Part shown: piece after piece, positions 70-63,880 of the stretch
Layout of the letters: each line of letters opens with the position of its first letter
How positions within the stretch are numbered: the stretch's first letter is position 1
Assembly: GCF_963921235.1 (NCBI RefSeq)
Contig: NC_086097.1
Location: 8,060,001-8,124,000 of the forward strand
Length of the DNA stretch: 64,000 nucleotides
Direction of reading: 5' to 3'
Origin: Mobula hypostoma
Lineage: Eukaryota
Made by a program: the position numbers and the translations under genes
The notes under the pieces: model-generated
Told to the model about the DNA's origin: nothing
Database searches by the model: none
The model's input: only the letters and a program-made list of their open reading frames with translations

Positions 70-385
70 TGTACACAATAGTTTGATTTATGAAGGTTAA
101 TGTGCCAAAAGCTTTCATTAGAACCCTAGTAACCTTTGATGCCACTTTCAATGAATTATGGACCTGTATTTCCAGATACCTTTGTTCTACCATACTCATC
201 AGTGCCCTACCACTCACAGTATAAGACCTATACTTGTTAGGGCTACTGAAGTGCAATACCTCGCACTTGTCGGCATTAAATTCAATTACGTCTGCCATTT
301 TTTCAGCCAATTTTTCCAGATGGTCCATATCCCACTGCAAGCCATGATAATCTTCCTTGCTGTTCACTACACCCTCAATTTTTTT
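70..385 (-). mobile_element. CR1 LINE ORF2 fragment (C-terminal part of RT)
   Basis: ORF 44..673 contains EFNADKCEVLHF..MVEQRYLEIQVHNSLKV. Confidence 0.85.
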
Positions 386-399
386 AGGTATAGATAAAG

Positions 400-922
400 A
401 GAAGTCAATTTTTTTAGACCAGCAATTAGGAATATTATCACAGCCAGTACTTTTCGACTGGTGGGTATATTTTATAACCTCTTTCAGCAAATCCATTTTA
501 AGCTCAGGTGTTTGCATTTCTTCAATCATGTGTGTGTGTTCTTTTCCCTCCCCAATCCAGCTTGCTCCTTGACTGTGTGTCACCCTATTTGACTGGATAT
601 TAGAACAAACTTTCATTAACTCCGTGTTTGTTCGTAATTCTGTGCTAGGGTTGGTGATATTTTTGTTCATCAAATTTAGTTTTAATGTCCTATATAAACC
701 TTTTTCATTGTTTTTGAACTGATAGTTCTGTTTTCTTCATCCGGTGCATTCCATGTATCTATTTAGTCTGGTTTTGTATGCACCAAGCTTTTGTTTTAAT
801 GTATCTATAAACTCCACAGTGCTTTTGCTAGGTTGGTCATATCTTGTGTGGACTTTATATTTCCTTACTATTTCCTGAACTTTTCTCTTACCTTTCTTAT
901 TCTTGTTCTTCTTTGAGCACAT
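400..922 (-). mobile_element. R4/Dong-like non-LTR retrotransposon fragment (region before RT)
   Basis: LKQKLGAYKTRLNRY and KSTGCDNIPNCWSKK resemble R4-clade motifs (KSPGxDxIxNxWxKK). Confidence 0.6.
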
Positions 923-7689: not shown

Positions 7690-10600
7690 GAAGGGGCCCG
7701 TGGGACAGGACTGACCAGCGCCACGCTGGCCCTGCCGTGTGCCAAGAAGCGACCTCTGCTTCCGGTGTGGTGAGGCAGGCCATGTGGCCCAGAACAGTTC
7801 AGCACCAGCATCATGCCACAGCCCAGTGCAGCTATCGGGAAATGCCGGACAGGTAGCACTTCACAAGACCTCCAGCAGAAACCCTTCATTATTGCCTCTC
7901 CATGTGGGTCACTTGGGTGAAGGGCAAGGTTTATACGTGCACTGTAAGGTGGAGGGCATCAAATGCCGGGTATTGGTGGACACGGGGTCAATGGTCACCA
8001 TCATCCATCCACATGTTCTCCCCAACATGGACCAGCCAACCCTGCCTGGGAGGACAACGACAGCAGTCCAGCTGGCTACGGTCACTGGCGACTGTGCGGT
8101 GACGAGAGGGACGAGGAGGCTTGGCATGGCAATGGAGCACGAGGTGTGGCCAGCCGACATCCGGGAGTCCTGCATCACTGGCTTGGACCTGCTACCCTGC
8201 TGGGGGCCCGTGCGGATAGGCTGTGGGCAACACCCTATCTCAGTGCTGAAGCCCGGGCTCTCTGGCAGGGCAGCTCCAGAAAGTGGACCCGGTGGGTGCA
8301 GCAACAACCACCATCAGTCTCCCAGTGACCTGTGGCAGTGCAGTACACCACACAGCAGCTCAGCGCAACACAGTGGAACCAGGGGCAAGCAGTGGGGGCA
8401 GCAGTTCAGATGGCAGCTGGCGGTGAGGTAGACTTCCCCACCATTGACCATCAGCTGTGCATTGAGCAGGAGACTGATCCCATCCCAGCCTGGGTGAGGG
8501 GATGGCTGAGTGTGGGACGGTGGCCGGGGTGGGCAGAGGTCTTCACCCTGGATTGCGCAAGCAAAGCCCAATACACCCAGTGGGAAACACTGGAGGTGTG
8601 CGACGGGTTGCCGTTCCGACTGTGGCAGTTGCCCGACAACGACTAATACCTCCTGCAGCTGGTGGTGTCGCTAGGGCTTCACACTATGATGCTGCTGTCA
8701 GTGCATGGGCTGGTGGGGGCCAGCCAATTTGGGGTCACAAGGATGTTTGGCAGGCTGCGTGAACTCTTCTGTTGGCCTGAGTACAGACATAGAAACATAG
8801 AAACATAGAAAATAGGTGCAGGAGTAGGCCATTCGGCTCTTCAAGGCTGCACTGCCATTCAGTATGATCATGGCTGATCATCCAACTCAGAACCCTGTAC
8901 CTGCCTTCTCTCCATACCCCCTGATCCCTCTAGCCACAAGGGCCATATCTAACTCCCTCTTAAATATAGCCAATTAACTGACCTCAACTGTTTCCTGTGG
9001 CAGAGAATTCCACAGATTCACCACTCTCTGTATGAAGAAGTTTTTCCTCATCTTGGTCCTAAAAGGCTTCCCCTTTATCCTCAAACTGTGACCCCTCGTT
9101 CTGGACTTCCCCAACATCAGGAACAATCTTCCTACATCTAGCGTGTCCAATCCCTTTAGAATTTTATACGTTTCAATAAGATCCCCCCTCAATCTTCTAA
9201 ATTCCAGAGAGTATAAGCCTAGTCAATCCAGTCTTTCATCATATGAAAATCCTGCCATCCCAGAAGTCAATCTGGTGAACCTTCTTTGTACTCCTTCGAT
9301 GGCAAGAACATCTTTCCTTAGATTAGGGGACCAAAACTGCACACAATACTCCAGGTGTGGTCTCACCAAGGCCTTGTACAACTGCAGTAGTACGTCCCTG
9401 CTCCTGTACTTGAATCCTCTTGCTATGAATGCCAGCATACCATTCGCGTTTTTCACCGCCTGCTGTACCTGCATGTCCACTTTCAATGACTGGTGTATAA
9501 TGACACCCAGGTCTCGTTGCACCTCCCCTTTTCCTAATCGGCCACCATTCAGATAATAATCTGTTTTCCTGTTCTTGCCACCAAAGTGGATAACCTCACA
9601 TTTATCCACACTAAATTGCATCTGCCATGAAGTTGCCCACTCACCCAACCTATCCAAGTCACCCAGCATCCTCTTAGCATCGTCCTCACAGCTAACACTG
9701 CCGCCCAGCTTCATGTCATCCGCAAGCTTGGAGATGCTACATTTAATTCCCTCATCTAAGTCATTAATATATTATTGTCAACAACTGGGGTCCCAGCACT
9801 GAGCCTTGCGGTACCCCAGTAGTCACTGCCTGCCATTCAGAAAATGTCCTGTTTATTCCCACTCTTTGCTTCCTGTCTGCCAACTAATTTTCTATCTACA
9901 TCAATACCATACCCCCAATACTGTGTGCTTTAAGTTTGCACACTAATCTCTTGCGTGGGACCTTGTCAAAAACCTTTTGAAAATCCAAATATAACACATC
10001 CACTGGTTCTCCCCTATCCACTCTACTAGTTACATCCTCAAAATATTCTATGAGATTCATCAGACATGATTTTCCTTTCAAAAATCCATGCTGACTTTGT
10101 CCGATGATTTCACAGCTTTCCAAATGTGCTGTTATCACATCTTTGATAACTGACTCTAGCATTTTCCCCACCACCGATGTTAGGCTTACCGGTCTATAAT
10201 TCCCCGGTTTCTCTCTCCCTCCTTTTTTACATTACATTACAGGGTTACATTAGCTACCCTCCAATCCTCAGGAACTAATCCAGAATCTAAAGAGTTTTGA
10301 AAAATTATCACTAATGCAACCACTATTTCTTGGGCTACTTCCTTAAGCACTCTGGGATGCAGACCATCTGGCCCTGGGGATTTATCTGCCTTTAATCCCT
10401 CAATTTACCTAACACCACTTCCCTACTAACATGTATTTCCCTCAGTTCCTCCATCTCACTAGACCCTCTGTCCCCTACTATTTCTGGAAGATTATTTATG
10501 TCTTCCTTAGTGAAGACAGAACCAAAGTAGTTATTCAATTGGTCTGCCATGTCCTTGTTCCCCATGATCAATTCACTTGTTTCTGACTGTAAGGGACCTA

Positions 10601-13731: not shown

Positions 13732-16228
13732 CAGTGCCTATAAGAAGTATTCACCCCTCCCCCCGGAAGTTTTCATGTTTTATTGTTTTATAACATTGAA
13801 TCACAGTGAATTTAATTTGACTTTTTTCAAGATTCAAGATTCAAAAAACTTTATTGTCATTCTAACCGTACATTAGCTCTGCAGGGCAGAATGAGACAGC
13901 ATTTCCCAGGAGCAGTGCAATCATAACATAACAAACAATATATTGATTTTGACAATCAATATATAATTTTGTTAATGACATAACAATTGTCGGCCGTATC
14001 TCAGGTAATGATGAGTTTTAGTACGGAGAGGATATTAAGAACCTGGTGGCATGGTGCGAAGATAATAACCTATCCCTCAACGTCAGCAAGATGAAGGAAT
14101 TGGTTGTTGACTTCAGAAGGAGTAGCGGACCACATGACCCAATTTACATTGATGGTGCGCAAGTGGAACAGGTTAAAAGCTTTAAGTTCCCCGGGGTCAA
14201 TATAACAAATGACCTGACTTGGTCCAACAAAGCAGAGTTCACTGCCAAGAAGGCCCACCAGCACCTTTACTTCCTGAGAAAACTGAAGAAATTTGGCCTG
14301 TCCTCTAAAACCCTCACTAATTTTTATAGATGCACCGTAGAAAGCATTCTTCTAGGGTGCATCAGAACCTGGTATGGAAGTTGTCCTGTCCAAGACCGAA
14401 AGAAGCTGCACAAGATCATGAACACGGTGCAGCACATCACACAAACCAATCTTCCGTCCTTGGACTCACTTTACACCGCACGCTGTCGGAGCAGTGCTGC
14501 CAGGATAATCAAGGACACGACCCACCCAGCCAACACACTTTTCGTCCCTCTTCCCTCTGGAAGAAGGCTCAGGAGCTTGAAGACTCATACGGCCAGATTT
14601 GGGAACAGCTTCCTTCCAACTGTGATAAGACTGCTGAACGGATCCTGACCCAGATCTGGGCCGTACCCTCCAAATATCCAGACCTGCCTCTTGGTTTTTT
14701 TGCACTACCTTACTTTCCATTTTTCTATTTTCTATTTATGACTTATAATTTAAGTTTTTAATATTTACTAACTTTTACTATTTTTAATATTTAATATTTG
14801 TAATCCAGGGAGTGGGAAGCACAGAATCAGATATCGCTGTGATGATTGTACATTCTAGAATCAATTGTTTGGCGACAATAAAGTATAAACTATCAATAAA
14901 AAAGGCTCTTTCATGTCAAAGTGAAAACAGATCTCCACAAAGCGATCTAAATTAATTACAAATATAAAACACAAAATAATTGATTGTATAAGTATTCACC
15001 CCCTTTAATATGACACACCAAATCATCACTTGTGCAGCCCAATTGGTTTTAGAAGTCACATAATTAGTTAAATAGGCTGTTTTTGGTGACCTGTGTGCAG
15101 TCAAGGTGTTTCAATTAATTGTAGTAAAAATGCACCTGTATCTGGAAGATCCAACTCCTGGTGAATCAATATCCTAGCAAAAATTACACCAGGAAGACAA
15201 AGCAACACTCCAAACAACTCTGTGAAAATGTTATTGAAAAGCACAAGTCAGGAAATGGATGCAAGAAAATTTACAGGTCACTGAAGTCACTTGAGTACAG
15301 TTAAGACAATCATCAGAAATGAAAAGAATACGGCACAGCTGTAAATCTGCCCAGAGCAGCTTATCCTCAAAAAACTGAGAGACTGTGCAGGAAGAGGTTT
15401 GGAGTAGGAGACTACCAGGAGACCCACGACATCTGTGGAGGACTTACAAGCTTCAGTCGCTGAGAAGGGAGGGACTGTGCATACAGCAACTGTTGCTCGG
15501 GTGCTTTACCATCACAGCTTTATGGGAGAGTGGCAAAGAAAAAGCCACTGTTGAAAAAAACTCACAAGAAATCTTGGCCAGAGTTTGCCAGAAGGCATGT
15601 GGGAGACTCTGAAGTCAGCTAGAAGAAGATTCTATGGTCTTATGAAACCAAAACTAAGCTTTTTGTCCATCAGACCAAACGTCGTACATCAAAAACAGAC
15701 CATCCCTACTGTGAAGCATGGTGGTGGCTACGTCATGCTGCGGGGATGCTTCATTACAGAAGGCCCTAGAAGGCTTGTAAAGGTAGAGAGTAAAATAAAT
15801 GCAGAAAAATACAAGGAAATCTTGGAGGAAGATTTGATGCAGTATACAAGAGAACTGCAGCTTGGGAGAAAATTTGCTTTCCAGCAACACAATGACCCCA
15901 AACATAAAGCCAAAGCTACACGGGAATGGCTTAAAAACAACAGCGTTAATATCCTGGAGTGGCCAAGTCAGAGTCCAGACCCCAATCCAATTGAGAATTT
16001 AGAGACCTATCCACACAGACTCAAGGCTGTAATTACTGCCAAAGTTGCATCTATTAAATACTGACTTGAAGGGGTGAATACTTATGCAATCAATTATTTT
16101 GTGTTTTATATTCGTAACTAATTTAAATCACATTGTTTAAGCCAAATTAAATCCACTGTGATTCAATATCGTAAAACAGTAAAACATGAAAACTTCCAAG
16201 GGGGAGTAAATACTTTTTATAGGCACTG
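13732..16228 (+). mobile_element. Tc1-like DNA transposon with long IR/DR TIRs and TA TSD; decayed transposase at about 15191-16064
   Basis: TA|CAGTGCCTATAA..TTATAGGCACTG|TA; PTVKHGGG, FQQHNDPKH, WPSQSPDPNPIENL; AAGTATTCACCCC direct repeats. Confidence 0.95.
13970..14890 (+). mobile_element. Rex1/Babar-type LINE 3' part inserted in the left Tc1 TIR
   Basis: ORF 14046..14648 WCEDNNLSLNVSK..KKAHQHLYFLRKL..FYRCTVESIL. Confidence 0.9.
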
Positions 16229-16944
16229 TACATCTAATTAAATGATACAACATTCCTCCGGACTACGGGGCACCCACCAAACATACATCATGCACAGCAA
16301 AGAAAACAAAGTATTATCACAAATAAGTTAATAAAATATAATTCAAAGTGAATGAAGTGGCAGCATAGGTAAACCGTAAACAGCTCACTGTCCTCGTGAT
16401 GAGACCTCAAGTGGTGGTAGAGGATTCATTAGTTTCATAGCCCGAGGGAAGAAGCTGTTGCCCACTCTGGCAGTCCTAGTCCTGATGCTTCTGTAACTCA
16501 TTCCTGAAAGTAGTGGGTCAAAGAGATTTTGAGATGGGTGGTAGGGATCCTCAATAGTGTTTGGGGTCCTTCATCTCCCTGTGGTAAATGTCACAACTGG
16601 GAGGAGGAAGGCCCTGCTGATACCAGAGTAGATCTTTGATGATTGATCAGAAATTGTGGTGCCATAGATAGTGCTGATGGTTTTTGCTACTGAACTTTGA
16701 TGCTGTTACATAGAAGCATCTCAGCCAAGAGGGTAAAACTGAAGAGCTGAATAATGCTACACCTTGGCTTGCCAAAGGCACTTGAGTGTTTTGGACTATC
16801 GGTCACTTGCTGTGTGTAAATATGGGATTTTTTTTTAAAATAAAGCCGTACTGCATACATTGTAAATATCAGTTTTGCACAGACTGGAGTAGCACCACAA
16901 TCTCATTGTCTTGAGCAAGGGCAATAAAGCTCTCTTCTATTTCG

Positions 16945-18208
16945 TTGCCACCTGGCCCTAACCCACCTGGACAAAAATGACACATACGTTCGAATGCTGT
17001 TCATAGACTTCAGTTCAGCATTCAACACAATCATTCCTCAGAAACTGATTGGAAAGCTGAGCCTACTGGGCCTGAACACCTCCCTCTGCAAATGGATCCT
17101 GGACTTCCTGACTGGGAGACCTCAGTCAGTCCGGATTGGAAGCAGCATCTCCACCACCATCACACTGAGCACGGGGGCCCCCCAGGGCTGTGTGCTCAGT
17201 CCACTGCTGTTCACTCTGCTGACCCACGACTGTGCTGCAACACACAGCTCGAACCACATCATCAAGTTCGCCGATGACACGACCGTGGTGGGTCTCATCT
17301 GCAAGAACGATGAGTCAGCATACAGGGAGGGGGTGCAGCGACTAACGGACTGGTGCAGAACCAACAGCCTGTCTCTGAATGTGAACAAAACAAAAGAGAT
17401 GGTTGTTGACTTCAGGAGGACACAGAGCGACCACTCTCCGTTGAGCATCGACAACTCCTCCATAGAGATTTCTTGCTGTTCACCTGGTGGAAAATCTCAC
17501 CTGGTCCCTCAACACCAGCTCCATAGCAAAGAAAGCCCAGCCACGTCTCTACTTTCTGCGAAGGCTGAGAAAGGTCTATCTCCCACCCCCCCCCCCCATC
17601 CTCACCACATTCTGCAGAGGTTGTATTGAGAGCATCCTGAGCAGCTGCATCACTGCCTGGTTCAGAAATTGCACCATCTCGGATCGCAAGCCCCTGCAGC
17701 GGATAATGAGGTCAGCTGAGAAGATCATCGAGCTCTCTCTTCCCGCCGTTACAGACATTTACACCACACGCTGCATCCATAAAGCAAACAGCATTATGAA
17801 GGACCCATGCACCCCTCATACAATCTCTTCTCCCTGCTGCCATCTGGCAAAAGGCACCAAAGTATTCAGGCTCTCACGACCAGACTATGTAACAGTTTCT
17901 TCCCCCAAGCCATCAGTCTCCTCAATACCCAGAGCCTGGACTGACACCAACCTACTGCCCTCTACTGTGCCTATTGTCTTCTTTATTATTTATTGTAATG
18001 CCTGCACTGTTTTGTGCACTTTATGCAGTCCTGGGTAGGTCTGTAGTCTAGTGTAGTTTTTGTGTTGTTTTTACATAGTTCAGTGTAGTTTTTGTATTGT
18101 TTCATGTAGCACCATGGTCCTGAAAAATGTTGTCTCGTTTTTACTGTGTACTGTACCAGCAGTTATGGTCGAAATGTCAATAAAAAGTGACTTGAGCTGA
18201 CTTGACTT
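16945..18208 (+). mobile_element. Rex1/Babar-type LINE, RT plus C-terminus, frameshifted
   Basis: [35 protein letters not shown]-type tail. Confidence 0.93.
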
Positions 18209-25803: not shown

Positions 25804-26092
25804 TGGCATGTGGCCAAGTGGTTAAGGCATTTGTCTAGTGATCTGAAGATCGCTAGTTCGAGCCTTGGCTGAGGCAACGTGTTGTGCACTTGAGCAAGGC
25901 ACTTAACCACACATTGCTCTGCGACGACACTGGTACCCTTCCATTGGACAACATCGGTGGCGTGGAGAGAGGATACTTGTAGCATGGGCAACTGCTGGTC
26001 TTCTATACAACCTTGCCCAGGCCTGCACCCTGGAAACCTTCCAAGGCACAAATCCATGGTCTCATGAGACTAACGGATGCCTATCATAAATA
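25804..26092 (+). mobile_element. tRNA-derived SINE with CORE-like middle and RTE-type tail shared with HDV-headed family 1
   Basis: A box TGGCCAAGTGG at 25811, B box GTTCGAGCC at 25856; TSD AC(C/T)GAGCTTTATGT at 25790 and 26093. Confidence 0.88.
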
Positions 26093-37353: not shown

Positions 37354-38142
37354 ACCAGAATCTGTTGATTCTCGAAAGATCATTGTTTACGCCTCCTCAA
37401 TCTCTCCAGCTGCTTCCTTCAGAACCCGAGGGTGTATTCCATCAGGTCCAGGAGATTTATCCACCCTCAGACCATTAAGCTTCCTGAACGCCTTCTCAGT
37501 CATAATTTTCACTGCACATACGTCACTTCCCTGACACTCTTGAATGTCCGGTATACTTCAGATGTCTTCCACTGTGAAGACTGATGCAAAATACGCATTC
37601 AGTTCCGCTGCCATCTCTTTGTCTCTCATTACAATATCTCCAGCATCATTTTCTATTGGTCTTATATCTACCCTCAACACTCTTTTAGATGGAAAAAAAA
37701 GTCTGTCTTTAAACAACTGCCTGTCAACTCTTAATAGATGGAAGGGTTTATTCCACACTCTATCTCTAAACAAACAAATAAATAAATAAATAAATATTGT
37801 TGTTCTCCATGGGTAGAGGAATTCAATTCTAGAAGAAGAATGCTTTCCTGAAATCATACAAGTCCTTGCTGAGACCACAGCGCGAGTATTGTGCACAGTC
37901 TCCTTCTCAGAGGAAGGATGACCTTGTTCTGCAGACAATGGCTAGATGTAGTAAATGGCTATCTATTTAATTAGGTAGTATTTGTTGAAACAGTCACATA
38001 AAGAGTCCTTATTCTTCCAGCAACTTTCATGGAATCATCAATACCCAGCAGAATGGGCAATCGAGATTTTGCTTTGACTTTTCATCTCGTTGTAAATGTG
38101 ACCAAAAGGGTCTCAGTAATCATGGATGTTGATAGCTTTTTT

Positions 38143-38742
38143 CAATGGTCCTCTGTTGGTCAGGATTGACCATGGATGTTGTGTCCTAAGTAAAGTTCAC
38201 AAGCCAGGGCAGTACAATACGGAGAGCAAGCTTTTGCCCATGCAGTAGGCTACTCCTCTTGATACAGATGATAAATCCAAATGAACAGCAGAGACCAATA
38301 CAATTGGCACCAGTGGCATCACAGGGGCATCACAGGAGTTGCCAGTCAGCATTGAACTCAATGTAGAACTGCATCAGGGACTCCAGCTCCAGATTTTTCC
38401 TCGGGGTTTACTTTGGAAGCTTTCCCCATGAGGAGGTATAGCCATAAGGCAGCGGAGTTTTGAGATCAGAGTTTTCCTTCTCCCAGATTAGCTGCCAACC
38501 ACGGCTGATGAGCCCTATCTGCCCGAAGCGACTGGTTTTAAGGCGACAGTAACCCGCCTTCTATTGTCTGTAAAAATGTTTCCGCCAGGTTTAGTAGCTA
38601 AGCCACACATGAAGGCCAGGAACTAGACTTGGTTGTCCCACGGTACTCCAGATGCACGCAATTAGGAGTATTTAATAGGTGGTGGGAGTTTATGACACCA
38701 TCACCCCGCCCCCACTCACAGCTATGGCAACCTTAAGGAACC
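38143..38742 (-). mobile_element. HDV-like-headed non-coding RTE-type element, family 1 (degenerate copy)
   Basis: Starts GGTTCCTTAAGGTTG; homologous to 43644-44236; imperfect TSD GTTGATA(G)CTTTTT. Confidence 0.8.
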
Positions 38743-43512: not shown

Positions 43513-43643
43513 AAATTAAAGCTGGGTGAACAGAGTAAACCTAAAGCACAAAATATAATGGAAGGAAAGTTTACTTTTGGACAATGACAGAATGCCCCAA
43601 AGTTATTATAACCAAAGGTTGAAATTGTTGTGTAAGTTTACTG

Positions 43644-44236
43644 GTGGTACTGGTGGCATTCATTAGTCTCGCGAGACCTTGGATCTGCGCCTGGATTCTC
43701 CAGGGTGCAGGCCTGGGCAAGGTTTTATGGAAGACCGGCGGTTGTCCATGCAGCAAGTCTCCCCTCTCCACGTCACCGACGTTGTCCAAGGGAAGGGCAA
43801 GGGCCGATACAGCTTGGCACCAGTGTCGTCGCAGGAGTTGCCAGAATGAGGTTGAAGGCAACGTTGGACTGCCTTAGGGACTCCAGCTCCGGATTTGTCC
43901 TCAGGGTTTACTCCCGAAGCCTTTCCCATCAGTGGGTATGGCCGCAAGGCAGTGGAGGTTTGAAATCAGAGTTTTCCCTCTCTTAGATGGACTACCTTCC
44001 CAGGTTGACGAGCTCCATCTACCCGAAGCACTGGTTTTAAGGCGCCAGGACCCGCCTTCGCCCCTTCTCCTGTCAGTAGAGACAGTTCCACCAGGCTTAG
44101 AGGCTAACCACACGAGAAGGCCAGGAGTTGGGCTTGGTTGTCAGAGGCTATTTGAGGCGCATGCCATAAGGAGCACTTCCTAGGTAGTGGGAGCTTGTCC
44201 CCACTACCAGTCCTCAGCTTGACAACCTTGGAAGCC
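43644..44236 (-). mobile_element. Full-length HDV-like-headed non-coding RTE-type element, family 1, with 12-bp TSD
   Basis: TSD GTAAGTTTA(C/G)TG at 43632 and 44237; no homologous ORF; tail GGTCTCGCGAGAC hairpin. Confidence 0.88.
44067..44236 (-). ncRNA. Candidate HDV-like ribozyme, family 1
   Basis: P1 GG(c)UUCC/GGAACU, P2 CUCCUG/CAGGAG, P3 GCC/GGU, L3 UUCUCG plus hairpin, J4/2 CUGA. Confidence 0.65.
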
Positions 44237-44564
44237 GTAAGTTTAGTGCTAGCAATCAAAGATGAATTTCTCTCCCTTCATTACAGCTTCTTTTAGAATT
44301 AGCTGGCAACGCTAGTTTCTGAACTGGACCCCTTCTAATTCTTTCCACATCAGACTTGAATTCACCAAGAGAAAGATACTGCAGAAAAGCCTTAGCCAAT
44401 GGTCTTAGACTAATTTCTCATCATTTAAGCGGAGATCCAAATTTGAAGAGCAAAAATTAGCAGCACACTTTTTCATATAATCATTTTATTTTGAGATAGA
44501 GCATGGTACAGTCCCTTCTGGCCCAAGTAGCCACACTGCACAGCAACCTGCCCATTTAAACCCT

Positions 44565-44797
44565 AGCAACACACATCAAATTTGCTGGTGAATGCAGCAG
44601 GCCAGGCAGCATCTCTAGGAAGAGGCACAATCGACGTTTCAGGCCGAGACCCTTCGTCAGTTAGTCCTGATGAAGGGTCTCGGCCTGAAACGTCGACTGT
44701 ACCTCTTCCTAGAGATGCTGCCTGGCCTGCTGCGTTCACCAGCAACTTTGATGTGTGTTGCTTGAATTTCCAGCATCTGAAGAATTCCTCGTATTTA
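44565..44797. mobile_element. Young Penelope head-to-head palindrome: 96-bp arms, 5 mismatches, 6-bp spacer, about 15-bp TSD
   Basis: Arms 44565-44660 and 44667-44762; CATTTAAACCCTAGC at 44553 and 44798. Confidence 0.92.
44662..44699 (+). ncRNA. Minimal type I hammerhead ribozyme motif
   Basis: UAGUC-CUGAUGA-AGG gucucgg CCU-GAAA-CGUC^GACUG; predicted cleavage after 44694. Confidence 0.82.
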
Positions 44798-49640: not shown

Positions 49641-50655
49641 AGTGTTACATTAGATCACATAATAGTTTATTTTGGGTTTCCATCGGCTGTTGCATCTTGA
49701 TTATAAAAACATCTGCAGCCCCTTCATAAATAGAAAATGATAAACTGATATATTGCCTCATTATTGTCACGTGTACTAAAGTACAATGAAAAGCGTGCCT
49801 TACATACTGTTCATACAGATTAAATCATTATGAAGTGCATTGACGTCATACAAGGTGGAACTATAAACGAATGCAGAATAAAATATTACAGCTAAAGTGT
49901 GTAATGCAGGGAGACAGTAAGATATGAGTTAAAGACAAGGTACATTGTAAGGTACAGAGTCAATCTTGTTGTACTAGAGATCCATCCAATAGTTGAACAA
50001 CAGTGGGATTGAGGTTATTCTGAAATCTGAAGGTATGAGCTTTCAGGATTTTGTACTGAATGGGATAGGGAGGGGAAAGAATGCCCATGGTGGGTGGGGT
50101 CTTTGATTATGCTGGCTGTTTTACCCAGCCAACAAAGTGTACACGGAGTCTGTGGAGGAGAGGCTGGTTTCCATGATATTTTGAGCTTTGTCTACAACTC
50201 TGTGCACGCCACTTGTGGTCACTGGCAGAGCAGTCGCCAAACCAACTCATGAAACAACTATTGATATCAATTAAATAGTATCAATAAAATTTCAGTTGTT
50301 CAATTTAACATCAGAGAATGTCTGCAGTATACAGGTACAACCTGAAATCCTTACTCTTCACAGACATCCACGAAACAGAGAAGAAAACCCCAAGGAATGA
50401 ATGACAGAAAAATGTTAGAACCACAAAGCCACCTCCCACCCCACATACAAGCAGCAGAAAAGCATCAATCTTCCACTTCCCCCTCCCCCTTACCTCACAA
50501 AAGCTTCAACCCCACTACTACCCATCATGCAATTTCCAGCCTGCAGAGACCATGACCTGGTCCATCAAAAACTACTGTACCTCCTAACGCTTCAACATTT
50601 CAACAGGTCCTCTTTCTCACTAAAAAGGGACAGCAAGATATCGTTCCAGCCACAG

Positions 50656-50857
50656 TCCATTAGCTCGTTGTTTCAATGTTACAGTCTGCAGCGTCACTTA
50701 CTCCAGCTCCCCGATTCAAGAATCAGCACCTTACAATGTACCTTGTCTTTAACTCATATCTTACTGTCTCCCTGCATTACACACTCCATTAGCTCGTTGT
50801 TTCAATGTTACAGTCTGCAGCGTCACTTACTCCAGCTCCCCGATTCAAGAATCAGCA
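50656..50857. repeat. Exact 73-bp direct duplication around a 56-bp spacer
   Basis: 50656-50728 is identical to 50785-50857. Confidence 0.92.
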
Positions 50858-52475: not shown

Positions 52476-52959
52476 GTAAACACGAGGAAATCTGCAGATG
52501 CTGGAATTTCAAGCAACACACATAAAAGTTGCTGGTGAACGCAGCAGGACCGTCAGCATCTGTAGGAAGAGGTACAGTCGACGTTTCAGGCCGAGACCCT
52601 TCGTCAGGACTAACTGAAATAAGAGCTAGTAAGAGATTTGAAAGTGGGAGGGGGAGGGAGAGGGGGAGATCCAAAATGATAGGAGAAGACAGGAGGGGGA
52701 GGGATGGAACCAAGAGCTGGACAGGTGATTGGCAAAAGGTATATGAGATGATCATGGGACAGGAGGCCCAGGGAGAAGGAAAAGGGGGAGGGGGGAAAAA
52801 AACCAGAGAATGGGCAAGGGGTATAGTGAGGGGGACAGAGGGAGAAAAAGGAGAGAGAGAAAAAGAATGTGTGCGTATGTAAATAAATAACGGATGGGGT
52901 ACGAGGGGGAAGTGGGGCATTAGCGGAAGTTTACGAGGGGGAGGTGGGGCATTAGCGGA
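52476..52959 (-). mobile_element. Penelope 3' UTR with intact hammerhead and probable 11-bp TSD
   Basis: AGCTTGA(A/T)CAC at 52465 and 52960; AACTTCCGCTAA (NFR*) ORF end duplicated at 52901-52960. Confidence 0.9.
52575..52612 (-). ncRNA. Minimal type I hammerhead ribozyme motif
   Basis: UAGUC-CUGACGA-AGG gucucgg CCU-GAAA-CGUC^GACUG. Confidence 0.82.
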
Positions 52960-54691: not shown

Positions 54692-55245
54692 GGTTCCTTA
54701 AAGTTATCGTAGCAGGGTGAGATAGTGAGTATAAGCTCCCTCTGCCTATTAAATGCTCCCAATGTCATGTGTCTCAAAGACCCTCTGACAACCAAGTCCA
54801 GCTGCTGGCCTTCACGAGTGACTTAGCTACTAAGCCTGGTGGACCCGATCTACTGACAGATTACTGATGCCTTAAAAGTAGTTGATTCAGGCAGATGGGG
54901 TTCATCAGTTCTGGTTAGTAGCTCATGTAGAAGGAGGAAAACTCTGATCTCAAATATCTGCTGCCTTGGGGCTATAAACATTCATGGAGAAGGCATTGGG
55001 AGTACACCCTTATGAAAAATCCAGAGCTGGAATCCCTAAGGTAGTCCTACGTTGAGTTCAACACTGTGCGGCAACTCCTGTGATGCTGATGGTGCCAAAA
55101 TATTTCAGTCTCTGCTGTTCCTTTGGATTTATCGGCTGCGAGGACAGGGGGAGGCTCCTACATGGGCAAAAGCTTGCTCTCCATATCATACTGCTCTGGC
55201 TTACGTATCAACTTTGATCGCTAAGATGCAACCCCACCAATGGAG
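54692..55245 (+). mobile_element. Family 1 HDV-like-headed element
   Basis: Starts GGTTCCTTAAAGTT; CTG-GCC-TTCACG..CTTAGCTACTAAG..GGT-GGACCC-GATCTA-CTGA-CAG. Confidence 0.8.
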
Positions 55246-60979: not shown

Positions 60980-63880
60980 GGTTCCTTAAGGTTGTTAGAG
61001 CCGTGAGTGGTAATGCGGATAAGCTCACACTACCCATTCAATGCTCCCGATGGTATGTGCCTCAAATAGCCTCTGACAACCAAGACCAGCTCCTGACCTT
61101 CACGTGTGATTTAGCTACTAAGCCCAGCAGAATCATTTCTACTGACAGGAGAAGGGGCAAAGGCAGGTTGGTGGCACCTTAAAACCAATTGCTTTGGGCA
61201 GATGGGGCTTGTCAGCCGTGGCTGGCAGCTCATCTAGGAGAAGAAAAACTCTGATTTCAAATCTCCGCTGCCTTGCAGCTGTACCCACCAGGACCGGATT
61301 AAGCTAGCGCAGGGCCTGTAGTGTATGTTATAAAGGGGCCCTAAATTAAAAAACGCACATAAGTATTATAACATAAATTATTTACTTGCATAGTAAAGTA
61401 ATTCAATTTTTTCATTTGCTATACAGCCAGATAATACGACAAATGTCTGTCACTTCAGTAATAGTATTGCTTACATGTAGGTATCAATTTCAAATGTCAA
61501 AAGTAACAAAACTACAATTTAAAAGTTAGATTTTCTAGATTTAGCATGAGCAAACTTGTTGATGATACTGGAAATGTCTATTTCACGCAGAAGTTCATGT
61601 TCAATGCTCATTAGATGAGATTGTTCAATCTGTTCTGACCCATGGTGCTCCTTAGTTCAATTTTAAAATGAGCGTTCTCCACTGCAGTTGGTAACCATGA
61701 GTGACAAATAGATGCGCAAGGCATTTTCTACATTTGGAAAACATGACTCCAAAGAATTGTCAGTTATCAAACTGTACAACTGTAACTCTACAAGGTCTTG
61801 TTTGGCGCCAATATGAGAAGTAAGATCAGTTTTCAACAGTTCAGTAAACTGCACAACTTCTTCATTAAGACTTTCTTCCAGATCTTCCGGATATGATTTA
61901 ATAAGATTTGATGACCTCTTTACGATCTCTTCAGGTGTAAACGACTGTAACTGATGAAGGAATCCAAAAACACCATTCACCTTTAGATAAGCTTTCTGTC
62001 TTTTTGACAGGGCAGAAAGCAAGCTGTCAATAATTTCAAGAAATGTTCGGCTTTTAAACTTCTGAGAAGGCGTTCGAGATTCACCAAGTGGATCAAGAAT
62101 GCTGGAACCACTGAAATTATTACATGCGTGATTTTGCTTGTGTTTTCTTCAAGTTTGCTGTTGATAATCTTCACACTTAGTCAGGTCCTTGGCTTTTTGC
62201 TCAATGTCTAAAAAAGTAGACCGCATAGCTTGAATATATCCATGCAAGGATTCATAGAGTGCACAAGCTATGTTCAAGTCTTGGCCCGAAGATTGCAAAG
62301 AAGCACTGGTCATTTGAAAACGCTGTAATACTTGATCCCACAATATGACCATTATTCCTGTTTCCAACTTCATCATGGTTGAAGGTAGTCCATGAGCCTG
62401 TTGTCGACACTCTGCCTTCTGATCATTGTTATTTGAAATGTCATCCAAGACTTGTTTTATTGCAGAAAAGCTGTGTAAAAGTGCTTTTGTTGCATCTGCA
62501 CGAGCTGACCACCTGGTATCTGACCTTCTTTTCACAATGAGCAAATGAGCACCACCATCAGATAATGCAGCAGAAAGGAGATCCCACCGATAAGTAGAAG
62601 CAGAAAAAAAATGTGTACAGGCTTTCTACAAATTGAAAGAAAATTAATGCTTTTTGACAACATTCAGCAGTACATTTTCCAACCAAATTTTGTGAATGTG
62701 CAAAACATGGAATGTAATCCACAAACTCATTCAGCTCTTTAGTTCATGCTTGTAAGCCACAATACTTGCCACTCCTGTTGCTGGCATTGTCATAACTTTG
62801 ACCACGGCAGTCTTTTATATCAACGTCATTTTCCTTTAAAAAGTCAAGCAAACTTTGAGCGAGCTGTTCAGCACTATGACCTTCTATAGAGTCCCCCGAC
62901 ATGAAAACAACAGCGTTGCCAGATTGTCGTTGTTGTGGCCTGGATAAAATCACAAAGCATTGCGTTAGCAATAGGTACAAGGCAGTTACTTTATTCGACA
63001 AAACAAGGTTACAGCAGGCAGAGACCCCTGGCAGAACAGGTCTAATCGCCTTGTGATTGAGGCTCGGTATTTATTTGCTAAACACAAAGGACAGTTCACA
63101 GTTACAAGTATAGACAATTCTTTGAAGTTTTCACATCTTTTGATAAAATTCATTCTACTGGTGCCAGTATGCCTAAGCTGGCATTCATGGCCTTTAGGAA
63201 TGCAAGTTAAAATCAATAATACATTATTTGGTATGTTATGTGCTAACATAGAGGACAAATCATATTCAAAAACCATAGATATGGTGTCTTCGCAACTACC
63301 TGTAAACTTAGCATTCTTGTCTCAGAGGTGCCAGAGATGCATTGTTACAAATGAAACTGGGTTCACAGCTTTTAGGAAATGCACTGTTATGAACTCAATC
63401 CAAGTACTTTGTCAAAGAACAGAAAACAGATGGCTGAAGTCATTTATTTAAGTGTAAATGAATCGTCTACCCAAAACTCACTCTAACAGTTGTGAGAATA
63501 CGGTGAGATGCCGCTTTCACCAGACTGCAGCTTGCAAGCATTTAGTGCGGGTGGGGTGCGCGAAAAAGCTACTTTTGCTACGAGGTTAATCTGGCCCTGA
63601 TACCCACCGACAGAGAAGGCATTGGGAGTAAACCCCAAGCCAAAATCCAGAGCTGGAGTCCCTAAGGCAGTCTAACAATGTTGACTGGGAACTCCTGCGA
63701 CGCTGCTGGTACTATACTGTATCAGTCTCTGCCATTTCTTTGGATTCATCAGATGCACGGAGAGAGGGAGCTTTCTACGTGGGCAAAAGCTTGCTCTCCA
63801 TTTTGTACTGCCGTGGCTTGTGTATCAGGACAGCTAGGACACAACATCCATGGTCAACTCTGAGCGACGGAGACCTGACA
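60980..63880 (+). mobile_element. Family 1 HDV-like-headed element (60980-61288 and 63600-63880), split by a hAT
   Basis: Starts GGTTCCTTAAGGTTG; core 60980-61151 with CpG decay; sequence resumes after the hAT. Confidence 0.85.
61289..63599 (-). mobile_element. hAT (Tip100/ZMYM1-like) DNA transposon with decayed transposase
   Basis: TIRs CAGGACCGGATTAA and TTAATCTGGCCCTG; TSD (G/A)TACCCAC; CRGQSYDNASN, SDTRWSAR, FPNV..ALRIYLSL.VTNCSGERSF. Confidence 0.95.

What the first reader, a model, noticed from the sequence alone, without database searches (positions are those of the whole stretch)
44067..44236. HDV-like ribozyme variant (hairpin in L3, almost no P4) defining the 5' end of a non-coding retroelement family
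Seen: four ~550-600 bp copies (5' ends at 38742-, 44236-, 54692+, 60980+) all begin GG(C)TTCC with different flanks, and a TSD fixes the boundary at 44236. By-eye consensus: P1 GGUUCC; ~100-nt J1/2 with GGUUGUCA/UGACAACC and GGUAGUGGG/CCCACUACC stems in the 44236 copy; P2 CUCCUG; P3 GCC; L3 UUCACG-UGU-[GGCUUAG cua CUAAGCC]-Y; P3' GGC; P1' GGAACY; GU; uucua; CUGA; P2' CAGGAG. Knowledge: this is the strand order of the HDV nested double pseudoknot. P3 matches genomic HDV, L3 UUCACG with a one-pair P1.1 matches the CPEB3 ribozyme, and HDV-like ribozymes are known at the 5' ends of R2, RTE and L1Tc/Ingi elements. Inference: the element cuts itself out of read-through transcripts, with the catalytic C at 44076 (-). 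I do not know of a described variant combining the L3 hairpin with a missing P4, and standard descriptors could miss it.
Basis: partly seen in the sequence, partly recalled or inferred. Interest (0 to 1): 0.85.

Follow-up and report, generated by a model that had tools for sequence, protein, structure and literature searches.

The report
Self-cutting RNA heading a retroelement family
The first 170 bases of an abundant non-coding retroelement in this animal genome have the layout of a hepatitis-delta-type self-cutting RNA, with an extra hairpin that two distant relatives lack, so the RNA probably trims its own front end, though cutting has not been tested.

Summary
Four copies start at 44236(-), 38742(-), 54692(+) and 60980(+) with unrelated upstream DNA. 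Copy A (43641-44236) is flanked by a 9-bp target duplication.

Contigs from three coded organisms show a very abundant family whose cover stops at the same 5' edge. Their consensus gives perfect P1 (6 bp from nt 1), P2 (6 bp) and P3 (3 bp). It also gives L3 UUCACGU, a J1/4 G and a J4/2 CUGA next to P2'.

A strict descriptor anchored at nt 1 fits by chance about 1 in 100,000 times, but I wrote it after seeing the data.

Two metagenome relatives (L001, L002) share the module but lack the hairpin. Their core is a canonical 7-nt-L3, P4-less HDV-like core. The window family therefore carries a lineage-specific 17-nt insertion at the 3' end of L3.

- Missing P4 is already published (minimal drz, theta ribozymes, some R2).
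- The consensus cleavage-site pair is G-C, not G.U.
- All four window copies are decayed.

No Rfam hit, no P1 covariation and no cleavage data. Verdict: a new variant of a known kind, probably a real ribozyme in the master copies (about 0.6).

The parts
43641..44236 (-). Copy A of the non-coding retroelement (596 nt), full length
   Evidence: BLAST and sequence. Boundaries set by the TSD and by the drop in family cover.
44237..44245 (-). 5' target-site duplication TAAACTTAC. Its partner lies at 43632-43640.
44230..44236 (-). P1 5' strand, GGCUUCC in copy A with an extra C. The family form is GGUUCC. The predicted cleavage site is just 5' of 44236.
44128..44229 (-). J1/2 peripheral domain (~100 nt). 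Closing helix 44220-44227 with 44136-44143; inner stem 44200-44208 with 44183-44191.
   Evidence: MFE folds. The closing helix is kept in 6 of 6 sequences, with an inserted A-U pair in L002.
44122..44127 (-). P2 5' strand, CUCCUG
44119..44121 (-). P3 5' strand, GCC
44110..44118 (-). L3 5' part, UUCUCGUGU in copy A. The family form is UUCACGU plus GU.
44094..44109 (-). Inserted hairpin. The family form is a 7-bp stem with a CUA loop; copy A lacks one C. The hairpin is absent from relatives L001 and L002.
44090..44092 (-). P3 3' strand, GGU in copy A and GGC in the family
44084..44089 (-). P1 3' strand, GGAACU in copy A and GGAACC in the family
44073..44083 (-). J1/4 G, a 6-nt linker in place of P4, and J4/2 CUGA. 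The candidate catalytic C is at 44076.
   Evidence: Same layout as drz-Mtgn-1, whose sequence is printed.
44067..44072 (-). P2 3' strand, CAGGAG
43985..44020 (-). Conserved stem-loop downstream of the ribozyme-like core
   Evidence: RNAalifold on 5 sequences finds pairs with both sides changed between the window family and L002.
43641..43834 (-). 3' tail with a stem-loop, shared with a much more abundant family
   Evidence: Summed word depth up to 1.7 million, and a loose end at 43834. Related copy at 25936-26081.
38142..38742 (-). Copy B (601 nt), ~13-bp imperfect TSD, other tail type
54692..55235 (+). Copy C. P2' is deleted and the 3' end is uncertain.
60980..61288 (+). Copy D. Only the 5' 309 nt; the closest of the four to their majority consensus (88.7%).
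63600..63830 (+). 5'-truncated fragment of the B/C-type element

Best explanation
The element is a non-autonomous, non-coding non-LTR retroelement. It has target-site duplications and a LINE-type stem-loop tail, and no tRNA-like head was detected.

Its first ~170 nt form a P4-less HDV-like (delta-like) self-cleaving ribozyme:
- P1, 6 bp, beginning at element nt 1.
- A ~100-nt folded J1/2 domain.
- P2, 6 bp.
- P3, GCC/GGC.
- L3, UUCACGU.
- A J1/4 G that could pair with the L3 C.
- A 6-nt linker in place of P4.
- J4/2 CUGA next to P2'.

In this family a 17-nt insertion at the 3' end of L3 turned the old P3' GGC into the 5' arm of a 7-bp hairpin. The same insertion supplied a new GGC that abuts P1'. 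P3 is thus extended through a 9 x 1 internal loop that carries the catalytic L3 bases.

Inferred mechanism: master copies lying in introns or behind other promoters are transcribed by read-through, and the ribozyme cuts just 5' of G1. The resulting defined-end RNA is copied by a partner LINE's reverse transcriptase, which explains the uniform 5' ends.

Shown here: the anatomy, the family consensus, the abundance, the boundaries, and relatives without the hairpin.
Inferred: catalysis, read-through transcription, and the LINE partner.

The four copies in the window are old and mutated, and probably no longer cut.
For: 1. 4 of 4 copies begin at G1 with unrelated flanks. Copies A and B have TSDs.

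2. Contigs of three coded organisms laid at 80% likeness or more gave 23,988, 19,647 and 22,324 pieces. In X1 the summed word depth falls from 14,142 (bin 44210-44234) to 58 (bin 44235-44259).

3. Loose-end consensus strings from those runs (233 and 142 contigs in X1), read on the element strand, give CUCCUG-GCC-UUCACGUGU-GGC, and then hairpin arm-C-GGC-GGAACC-G-UUUC.

4. The strict descriptor hits the 4-copy consensus once, at nt 1. It gave 0 hits in the real window, 0 of 40,000 anchored shuffles, and an estimate of 9e-6.

5. L001 and L002 were found with a 23-nt pattern covering only P2, P3 and the first 4 nt of L3. Outside the pattern they keep:
- A 7-nt L3 (UUCACGU and UUCACGG).
- P3' GGC.
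- A G after P1'.
- A 7-nt linker.
- CCAA and CUAA before P2', so the C and A are fixed while the N and R positions vary.
- P2' CAGGAG and CAGGA.

6. In L001 the P1' GAACC pairs with GGUUC at the homologous 5' end, where similarity to the window family stops.

7. The 'G + 6-7 nt + CNRA + P2'' layout equals that of drz-Mtgn-1, an in-vitro-active minimal drz.

8. Published precedent: long J1/2 domains, P4 too short to fold, and 6-7-bp P1 in retrotransposon ribozymes; HDV-like ribozymes in LINEs and non-autonomous SINEs.

10. aragorn found no tRNA in 4 of 4 copies, and Rfam matched no RNA gene family.
Against: - No cleavage assay or RNA 5'-end data exist. No RNA holder was usable for mapping ends.
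- No Rfam HDV-clan hit in the window, in copy A at E up to 10, or in L001 and L002.
- No compensatory change in P1, P2 or P3. P2 and P3 5' strands were fixed by the search pattern.
- L001 has a U.U at P1 pair 6.
- L002's P1' (AAAACU) has no partner at the homologous 5' position.
- The consensus first pair is G-C, whereas HDV and CPEB3 have a G.U wobble.
- A 27-nt L3 is outside anything I found described.
- The MFE of the core shows a competing helix between L3 and P3'/P1'.
- Every window copy carries at least one defect in P1, P2 or P3 (read).
- With one mismatch allowed in P1 and P2 the descriptor is unspecific: 57 and 62 hits in the window.
- My descriptor was written after the fact.
Confidence: 0.55

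Rival explanations
1. Relic ribozyme. The module descends from a working P4-less HDV-like ribozyme, as in L001 and L002. The 17-nt insertion in this family then crippled catalysis. The family's uniform 5' ends come from something else, such as an internal or upstream promoter or a nuclease. The module is kept for another role, such as RT binding or RNA stability.
For: - L3 is 27 nt instead of 7-8 nt (against 48, 49, 74).
- P3 is reported as very mutation-sensitive in HDV and CPEB3.
- A competing L3 with P3'/P1' helix appears in the MFE.
- A second conserved stem-loop downstream shows that the module holds more than a ribozyme.
Against: - The insertion recreates a GGC exactly abutting P1' and pairs away the old GGC. 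That looks selected, not random.
- P1, P2, the L3 bases and CNRA are all intact in the consensus of a family that then reached a very high copy number in three organisms.
Confidence: 0.2
2. Same ribozyme, other wiring. P3 uses the first GGC, as in L001. L3 is then 9 nt, and the 18 inserted bases sit between P3' and P1' as a bulged mini-hairpin.
For: Homology with L001 and L002 puts their P3' GGC opposite the first GGC of the window family. L001 already has 2 nt between P3' and P1'.
Against: - The nested energy is worse, -9.8 against -15.4 kcal/mol.
- It breaks the direct P3'-P1' junction.
- It leaves the perfect 7-bp hairpin and the second GGC unexplained.
Confidence: 0.1
3. Not a ribozyme. 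The 5' module is a conserved structured RNA with another function, such as a promoter element, a protein-binding site or an IRES-like fold. Its fit to the HDV layout is coincidence plus post-hoc model fitting.
For: - No Rfam hit.
- No P1, P2 or P3 covariation.
- The relaxed descriptor is unspecific.
- The unanchored strict descriptor still hits 21 loci in 3.84 Mb of shuffles.
- L002 lacks a P1 partner at the expected place.
Against: - The anchored chance is about 1e-5.
- Features not used in the pattern are kept in two relatives, with variation only at the positions HDV-like ribozymes allow.
- L3 and J1/4 agree with CPEB3 at the 8 residues that paper names.
- The layout matches active minimal drz.
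Confidence: 0.12

Closest known systems
HDV-like ribozymes at the 5' ends of non-LTR retrotransposons (R2, R4/Dong, Baggins, RTE, L1Tc) and their non-autonomous derivatives (NARTc, R2 SIDEs)
   Same: - Position at the very 5' end of the element.
- Cleavage predicted at element nt 1.
- P1 of 6-7 bp.
- Long J1/2 (23 to more than 700 nt in R2).
- P4 variable down to none.
- Role in freeing the element from a co-transcript.
Sources: PMC3774820 sections 12, 16, 18 and passages; PMC6765202 passages; search listing.
   Different: - This element is non-coding, dispersed and not rDNA-specific.
- It is very abundant in an animal genome.
- Its LINE partner is unknown.
- It carries a helix inserted at the 3' end of L3, which I did not find in those papers.
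Minimal (P4-less) HDV-like ribozymes: drz-Mtgn and phage theta ribozymes
   Same: - No P4.
- After P1' come G, 6-7 nt, C-N-R-A and then P2'.
- 7-nt L3 of the U-N-C-N-C-G-N type.
- 3-bp P3.
Source: the drz-Mtgn-1 sequence and text in PMC10879173 passages.
   Different: Those are ~50-nt RNAs with almost no J1/2, found in phages and often next to tRNAs. Here there is a ~100-nt folded J1/2, a eukaryotic retroelement context and the L3 hairpin.
Mammalian CPEB3 ribozyme
   Same: L3 U-U-C-A-(C)-G-U and J1/4 G-U agree with the residues named in PMC4836649. C24 and the full CPEB3 sequence are recalled, not seen. Both have a 3-bp P3 and a one-pair P1.1 plus U.U.
   Different: CPEB3 has a P4 hairpin, a G1.U wobble, a short J1/2 and a different P3 sequence, and it is a single-copy intronic element. 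The likeness may be convergence on a small active-site sequence space, as argued for R2 against HDV.
Large HDV-like ribozymes with a structured J1/2 peripheral domain (Webb et al. 2016)
   Same: A folded domain between P1 and P2 that could pinch the two helices together. Source: PMC4908430 abstract and introduction.
   Different: Its activating role is untested here. Those ribozymes have a P4.

Membership tests
HDV-like (delta-like) self-cleaving ribozymes | Nested double-pseudoknot strand order P1-P2-P3-L3-P3'-P1'-(P4)-J4/2-P2' | tested here: met
   The strict descriptor hits the 4-copy consensus once. L001 fits with a 5-bp P1 and L002 with a 5-bp P2. Each single window copy fails the strict form.
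HDV-like (delta-like) self-cleaving ribozymes | P1 of 6-7 bp whose first base is the cleavage site | tested here: met
   GGUUCC from element nt 1 pairs with GGAACC directly after P3'. 0 of 40,000 anchored shuffles fit.
HDV-like (delta-like) self-cleaving ribozymes | 3-bp P3 with L3 carrying the conserved U, C and G (U20, C22, G25) | tested here: met
   GCC/GGC with UUCACGU in the family consensus and in L001; UUCACGG in L002. Residue roles.
HDV-like (delta-like) self-cleaving ribozymes | L3 of about 7-8 nt | tested here: not met
   27 nt between P3 and P3' in the window family. Met in L001 and L002, which have 7 nt. HDV L3 is U20-U27.
HDV-like (delta-like) self-cleaving ribozymes | J1/4 G able to pair with the L3 C (P1.1) | tested here: met
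   G follows P1' in the consensus, L001 and L002.
HDV-like (delta-like) self-cleaving ribozymes | Catalytic C in J4/2 next to P2'. The C-N-R-A form is recalled from published descriptors, not seen in a paper here. | tested here: met
   CUGA, CCAA and CUAA in the three lineages. In copy A the C is at 44076.
HDV-like (delta-like) self-cleaving ribozymes | G1.U wobble at the cleavage site, as in HDV and CPEB3. Whether this is defining for the whole family is not known to me. | tested here: not met
   The consensus pair is G1-C: 3 of 4 copies have C, and so does the loose-end consensus. Copy A has U through CpG decay.
HDV-like (delta-like) self-cleaving ribozymes | Base-pair covariation in P1, P2 and P3 | tested here: inconclusive
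   None seen. P2 and P3 5' strands were fixed by the search pattern. P1 in L001 and L002 is unresolved. Covariation appears only in the J1/2 closing helix and a downstream stem-loop.
HDV-like (delta-like) self-cleaving ribozymes | Match to Rfam HDV-clan covariance models | tested here: not met
   No hit at gathering score in the window, nor at E up to 10 in 43600-44300 or in L001 and L002. From what I know of covariance models, they cannot score pseudoknots and fit a 100-nt J1/2 poorly, so this is a weak test.
HDV-like (delta-like) self-cleaving ribozymes | Mg2+-dependent self-cleavage giving a 5'-OH at G1 | not testable with these tools
   Needs a bench assay.
Minimal P4-less drz (drz-Mtgn / theta) | No P4; about 50-nt RNA with minimal J1/2; phage or tRNA context | tested here: not met
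   The P4-less layout is met. J1/2 is ~100 nt and the context is a eukaryotic retroelement.
SINE in the strict sense (Pol III head) | tRNA-, 7SL- or 5S-derived head with an internal promoter | tested here: not met
   aragorn found 0 tRNAs in 4 copies. No Rfam match.
Non-autonomous non-LTR retroelement | Target-site duplications, 5'-truncated copies, no long ORF with a known domain, LINE-like 3' stem-loop tail | tested here: met
   TSDs. Truncated copy at 63600-63830. The only ORF of 110 aa or more in copy A is antisense and has no Pfam family. The tail is shared with another abundant family. The LINE partner was not identified.

The most novel reading that the evidence does not exclude
The hairpin-bearing form is catalytically active. 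If so, the HDV fold tolerates a whole helix inserted at the 3' end of L3. A promoter-less, non-coding retroelement would then have reached a very high copy number in an animal genome by using a P4-less delta-like ribozyme to make its own 5' end. The same ~210-300-nt module also occurs in elements of distant animals: L001 sits right behind a LINE-like ORF end, and its nearest protein clusters are mollusc-labelled, which is a weak lead. Its CPEB3-identical L3 and J1/4 would make such elements a candidate source of the mammalian CPEB3 ribozyme.
Probability: 0.3. Interest if true: 0.72.

Novelty: new variant of a known kind. Interest (0 to 1): 0.55.

Why it matters
If the master copies cut themselves, three things follow.

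- This would be a very abundant ribozyme-headed non-autonomous retroelement in an animal genome, showing how an element without its own promoter gets a precise 5' end.
- It would extend the known tolerance of the HDV fold. The published variable parts are J1/2 and P4. Here a helix sits inside L3/P3, next to the active site, a place standard descriptors and Rfam models do not allow, so such ribozymes are probably under-counted.
- The hairpin-less relatives give a natural before-and-after pair for testing what the insertion does.

The L3 identity with CPEB3 gives a concrete lead for asking where that mammalian ribozyme came from.

Tried and rejected
- **Whole genome.** None is held for this window, so no genome-wide copy alignment or R-scape-type test was possible.
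- **Earlier findings.** Look-ups by sequence and by place returned nothing.
- **Rfam.** No HDV-clan hit. The weak mir-504, snoZ40 and ST7-OT rows are far below gathering score, and I treat them as chance.
- **Sequencing runs.** No RNA holder was listed. X16 is only guessed to be RNA, and all four runs were contigs, so no RNA ends, strand or expression can be read.
- **Relaxed descriptor.** With one mismatch allowed in P1 and in P2 it gave 57 (+) and 62 (-) hits in the window, so it cannot judge single decayed copies.
- **Genome contigs.** The first pattern gave 0 hits. The gapped pattern gave 3 (L003-L005). These lie inside GC-rich bacterial MAG contigs of 0.76-1.1 Mb and share nothing with the element beyond the pattern. 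By eye they read as coding sequence (not tested further). Rejected as chance.
- **Viral contigs.** 0 hits with both patterns.
- **L002 P1.** No partner at the homologous 5' position. A 6-nt (7 if it overlaps P3') complement lies 293 nt upstream. I estimate a chance of roughly 0.02-0.07, and leave it unresolved.
- **Protein atlas.** The LINE-like ORF upstream of L001 gave only unnamed eukaryotic clusters, some mollusc-labelled. This is a lead only.
- **Pfam.** A scan of 28 of the 49 ORFs of 110 aa or more found other transposon types but no partner LINE for this family.
- **Literature.** I found no description of an L3 helix insertion, and none of this family in the search listings. Webb & Luptak 2011 and Ruminski 2011 are not held. 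I saw no supplements, including the R2 structure figures. An earlier description cannot be excluded.
- **U27.** My recollection that U27 of HDV is extruded and deletable could not be confirmed. Only 'L3 = U20-U27' was seen.

Full report
**What is in the window.** The region is transposon-rich eukaryotic DNA. Pfam finds RVT_1 and ALKBH8_N-type matches, DDE_3, and (below the curated cut-offs) gag-protease and hAT matches in its ORFs. No whole genome is held.

BLAST of copy A and an nhmmer profile find four copies of the 5' module, at 44236(-), 38742(-), 54692(+) and 60980(+). There are also 3' fragments at 25936-26081 and 63600-63744. All four copies start GG(C)TTCC, and the DNA just upstream is unrelated.

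- Copy A is 43641-44236 with a perfect 9-bp target duplication.
- Copy B is 38142-38742 with a ~13-bp imperfect duplication.
- Copy D stops after 309 nt.

**The family outside the window.** Contigs from three coded organisms were laid on 43560-44300 at 80% likeness or more. They gave 23,988, 19,647 and 22,324 pieces, and a run guessed to be RNA gave 1,341. Part of these belong only to the 3' tail.

In X1 the summed word depth is 48,000-465,000 across the bins from 44060 to 44209, falls to 14,142 in bin 44210-44234, and to 58 in bin 44235-44259. Cover ends on the 3' side inside bin 43635-43659. The family edges therefore coincide with the TSD-defined ends, within a 25-nt bin. The listed single contigs have depths of about 6-19, which suggests thousands to tens of thousands of copies. 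This is a rough reading.

The positions where most contigs differ from copy A, and the loose-end consensus strings, give the family form of the core. On the element strand it reads:
- CUCCUG, GCC, UUCACGUGU.
- A perfect 7-bp hairpin with a CUA loop.
- C, GGC, GGAACC, G, UUUC.

So the U that makes a G.U first pair in copy A is a CpG decay product. 3 of 4 window copies have C there.

**Does it fit an HDV-like ribozyme, and beyond chance?** I wrote a descriptor with these terms:
- P1 of 6 bp.
- J1/2 up to 150 nt.
- P2 of 6 bp.
- P3 of 3 Watson-Crick pairs.
- L3 of 6-40 nt starting U-N-C, with a G at position 5-7.
- P3' abutting P1'.
- G after P1'.
- 5-70 nt up to a C-N-R-A that abuts P2'.

| Test | Result |
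|---|---|
| CpG-aware consensus of the four copies | 1 hit, P1 at nt 1 |
| Real window, both strands | 0 hits |
| Dinucleotide shuffles, unanchored | 21 loci in 3.84 Mb |
| Shuffles anchored at nt 1 | 0 of 40,000 |
| Core-only fits in shuffles | 239 of 40,000 |
| P1 term in shuffles | 0.0014 |
| Factorised anchored estimate | 9e-6 |

The descriptor was fitted after seeing the data, and with one mismatch each in P1 and P2 it becomes unspecific (57 and 62 hits). It therefore speaks for the family consensus, not for any single copy.

Reading, the copies fare as follows:
- Copy A has a bulged C in P1, a G.U in P3, a changed L3 base and a bulged hairpin.
- B, C and D each have one P1 mismatch.
- B keeps 4 of 6 P2 pairs.
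- C has lost P2'.
- D keeps 1 of 3 P3 pairs.

These loci are relics.

**Relatives without the hairpin.** A 23-nt pattern covering the linker, P2, P3 and the first four L3 bases was run against metagenome contigs. It returned two loci. Both are homologous to the module over ~210 nt (L001) or ~300 nt (L002). Both lack the hairpin.

- L001 reads GCC, UUCACGU, GGC, UU, GAACC, G, a 7-nt linker, CCAA, CAGGAG.
- L002 reads GCC, UUCACGG, GGC, AAAACU, G, a 7-nt linker, CUAA, CAGGA.

Everything after the first four L3 bases was free to differ, yet P3', the G, the C and A of C-N-R-A, and P2' are kept. The linker and the N and R positions vary. This is the pattern expected of a delta-like ribozyme.

Relative to L001, the window family has 17 extra bases between GGCUU and GAACC. 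They pair with the old GGC and bring a new GGC next to P1'. The nested part of this wiring is more stable than the alternative that keeps the first GGC as P3', -15.4 against -9.8 kcal/mol.

In L001, GGUUC at the point where similarity to the window family begins pairs with GAACC. Just upstream lies an AT-rich stretch and the end of an ORF that I read as LINE-like. The atlas gave only a weak, mollusc-labelled lead for it.

**What argues against.**
- No Rfam HDV-clan hit. These models cannot score pseudoknots, so this test is weak.
- No compensatory change in P1, P2 or P3.
- L001 has a U.U at P1 pair 6.
- L002's P1' has no partner at the homologous 5' site, only a 6-7-nt complement 293 nt upstream.
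- The first pair is G-C rather than the G.U of HDV and CPEB3.
- A competing L3 with P3'/P1' helix appears in the MFE.
- There are no cleavage or RNA-end data.

Covariation is seen only in the J1/2 closing helix, where L002 has an inserted A-U pair plus wobbles, and in a stem-loop downstream of the core, where four pairs are changed on both sides in L002.

**Comparison with what is known.**
- HDV-like ribozymes at element 5' ends are established for R2, R4/Dong, Baggins, RTE and L1Tc. In R2, P1 is 6-7 bp, J1/2 is 23 to more than 700 nt, and P4 is sometimes too short to fold (PMC3774820).
- P4-less minimal drz are active in vitro. drz-Mtgn-1, as printed in PMC10879173, has the same G + 7 nt + CUAA + P2' layout.
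- Structured J1/2 domains can activate large drz (PMC4908430 abstract).
- L3 and J1/4 agree with the CPEB3 residues named in PMC4836649.

The part I could not find described is a helix inside L3 (searches; listings only; the key reviews are not held). An AI note from this scan mentions a phage HDV-like ribozyme with a large insertion in a core loop. It is unchecked.

**Verdict.** My best reading is an HDV-like, P4-less ribozyme with a lineage-specific L3/P3 helix insertion that set the 5' end of a very abundant non-autonomous retroelement. I give about 0.55 that this wiring was active in master copies, and about 0.85 that the module descends from a delta-like ribozyme. It is a new variant of a known kind.

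Noticed in passing
window 43641-43834 (-) and 25880-26085 (+): The last ~190 nt of copy A, including a GGTCTC..GAGAC stem-loop, are shared with a different and far more abundant family. Summed word depth there reaches 1.7 million, and many contigs diverge at 43834. Copies B, C and 63600-63830 carry a related but distinct tail, so the family has at least two tail types.
   Followed up: partly
window 43985-44020 (-); L002 ~95-140 (-): A stem-loop downstream of the ribozyme-like core is kept between the window family and L002, with several pairs changed on both sides. It may be a second functional RNA domain, for example for RT binding.
   Followed up: partly
L001 326-602 (- strand): An ORF end that I read as a decayed LINE ORF2 C-terminus, followed by ~65 nt of AT-rich sequence, sits directly upstream of the module's 5' end. 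This could be a tandem or read-through arrangement.
   Followed up: partly
L002 ~549-555 (- strand): A 6-7-nt perfect complement of L002's P1' lies 293 nt upstream of P2, while the homologous 5' position does not pair. It could be a 5'-extended element or chance.
   Followed up: partly
window 44558-44769, 52476-52617: A long near-perfect palindrome (103-nt arms, 92% complementary, 6-nt spacer) lies 320 nt from copy A, with a 91-93% copy at 52.5 kb. It looks like a young foldback or MITE-like element.
   Followed up: no
window 50651-50857: Two 78-nt repeats 129 nt apart, 99% identical.
   Followed up: no
window 7715-8431, 14022-18038, 15555-16064, 61663-62148: ORF fragments with RVT_1, ALKBH8_N-type and DDE_3 matches, and with gag/aspartyl-protease and hAT dimerisation matches below Pfam's curated cut-offs. 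None could be tied to this family.
   Followed up: partly
element nt 5-12 (window 44225-44232 region in copy A; 54696-54703 in copy C): The family's 5' end holds the palindrome CCTTAAGG, which overlaps the last two bases of P1. It could form an alternative hairpin or a dimer.
   Followed up: no
family core (P3 to P1'): The MFE of the consensus core pairs UUC and CGU of L3 with GCG and GAA of P3'/P1', extending the hairpin. This is a possible inactive competitor fold.
   Followed up: no
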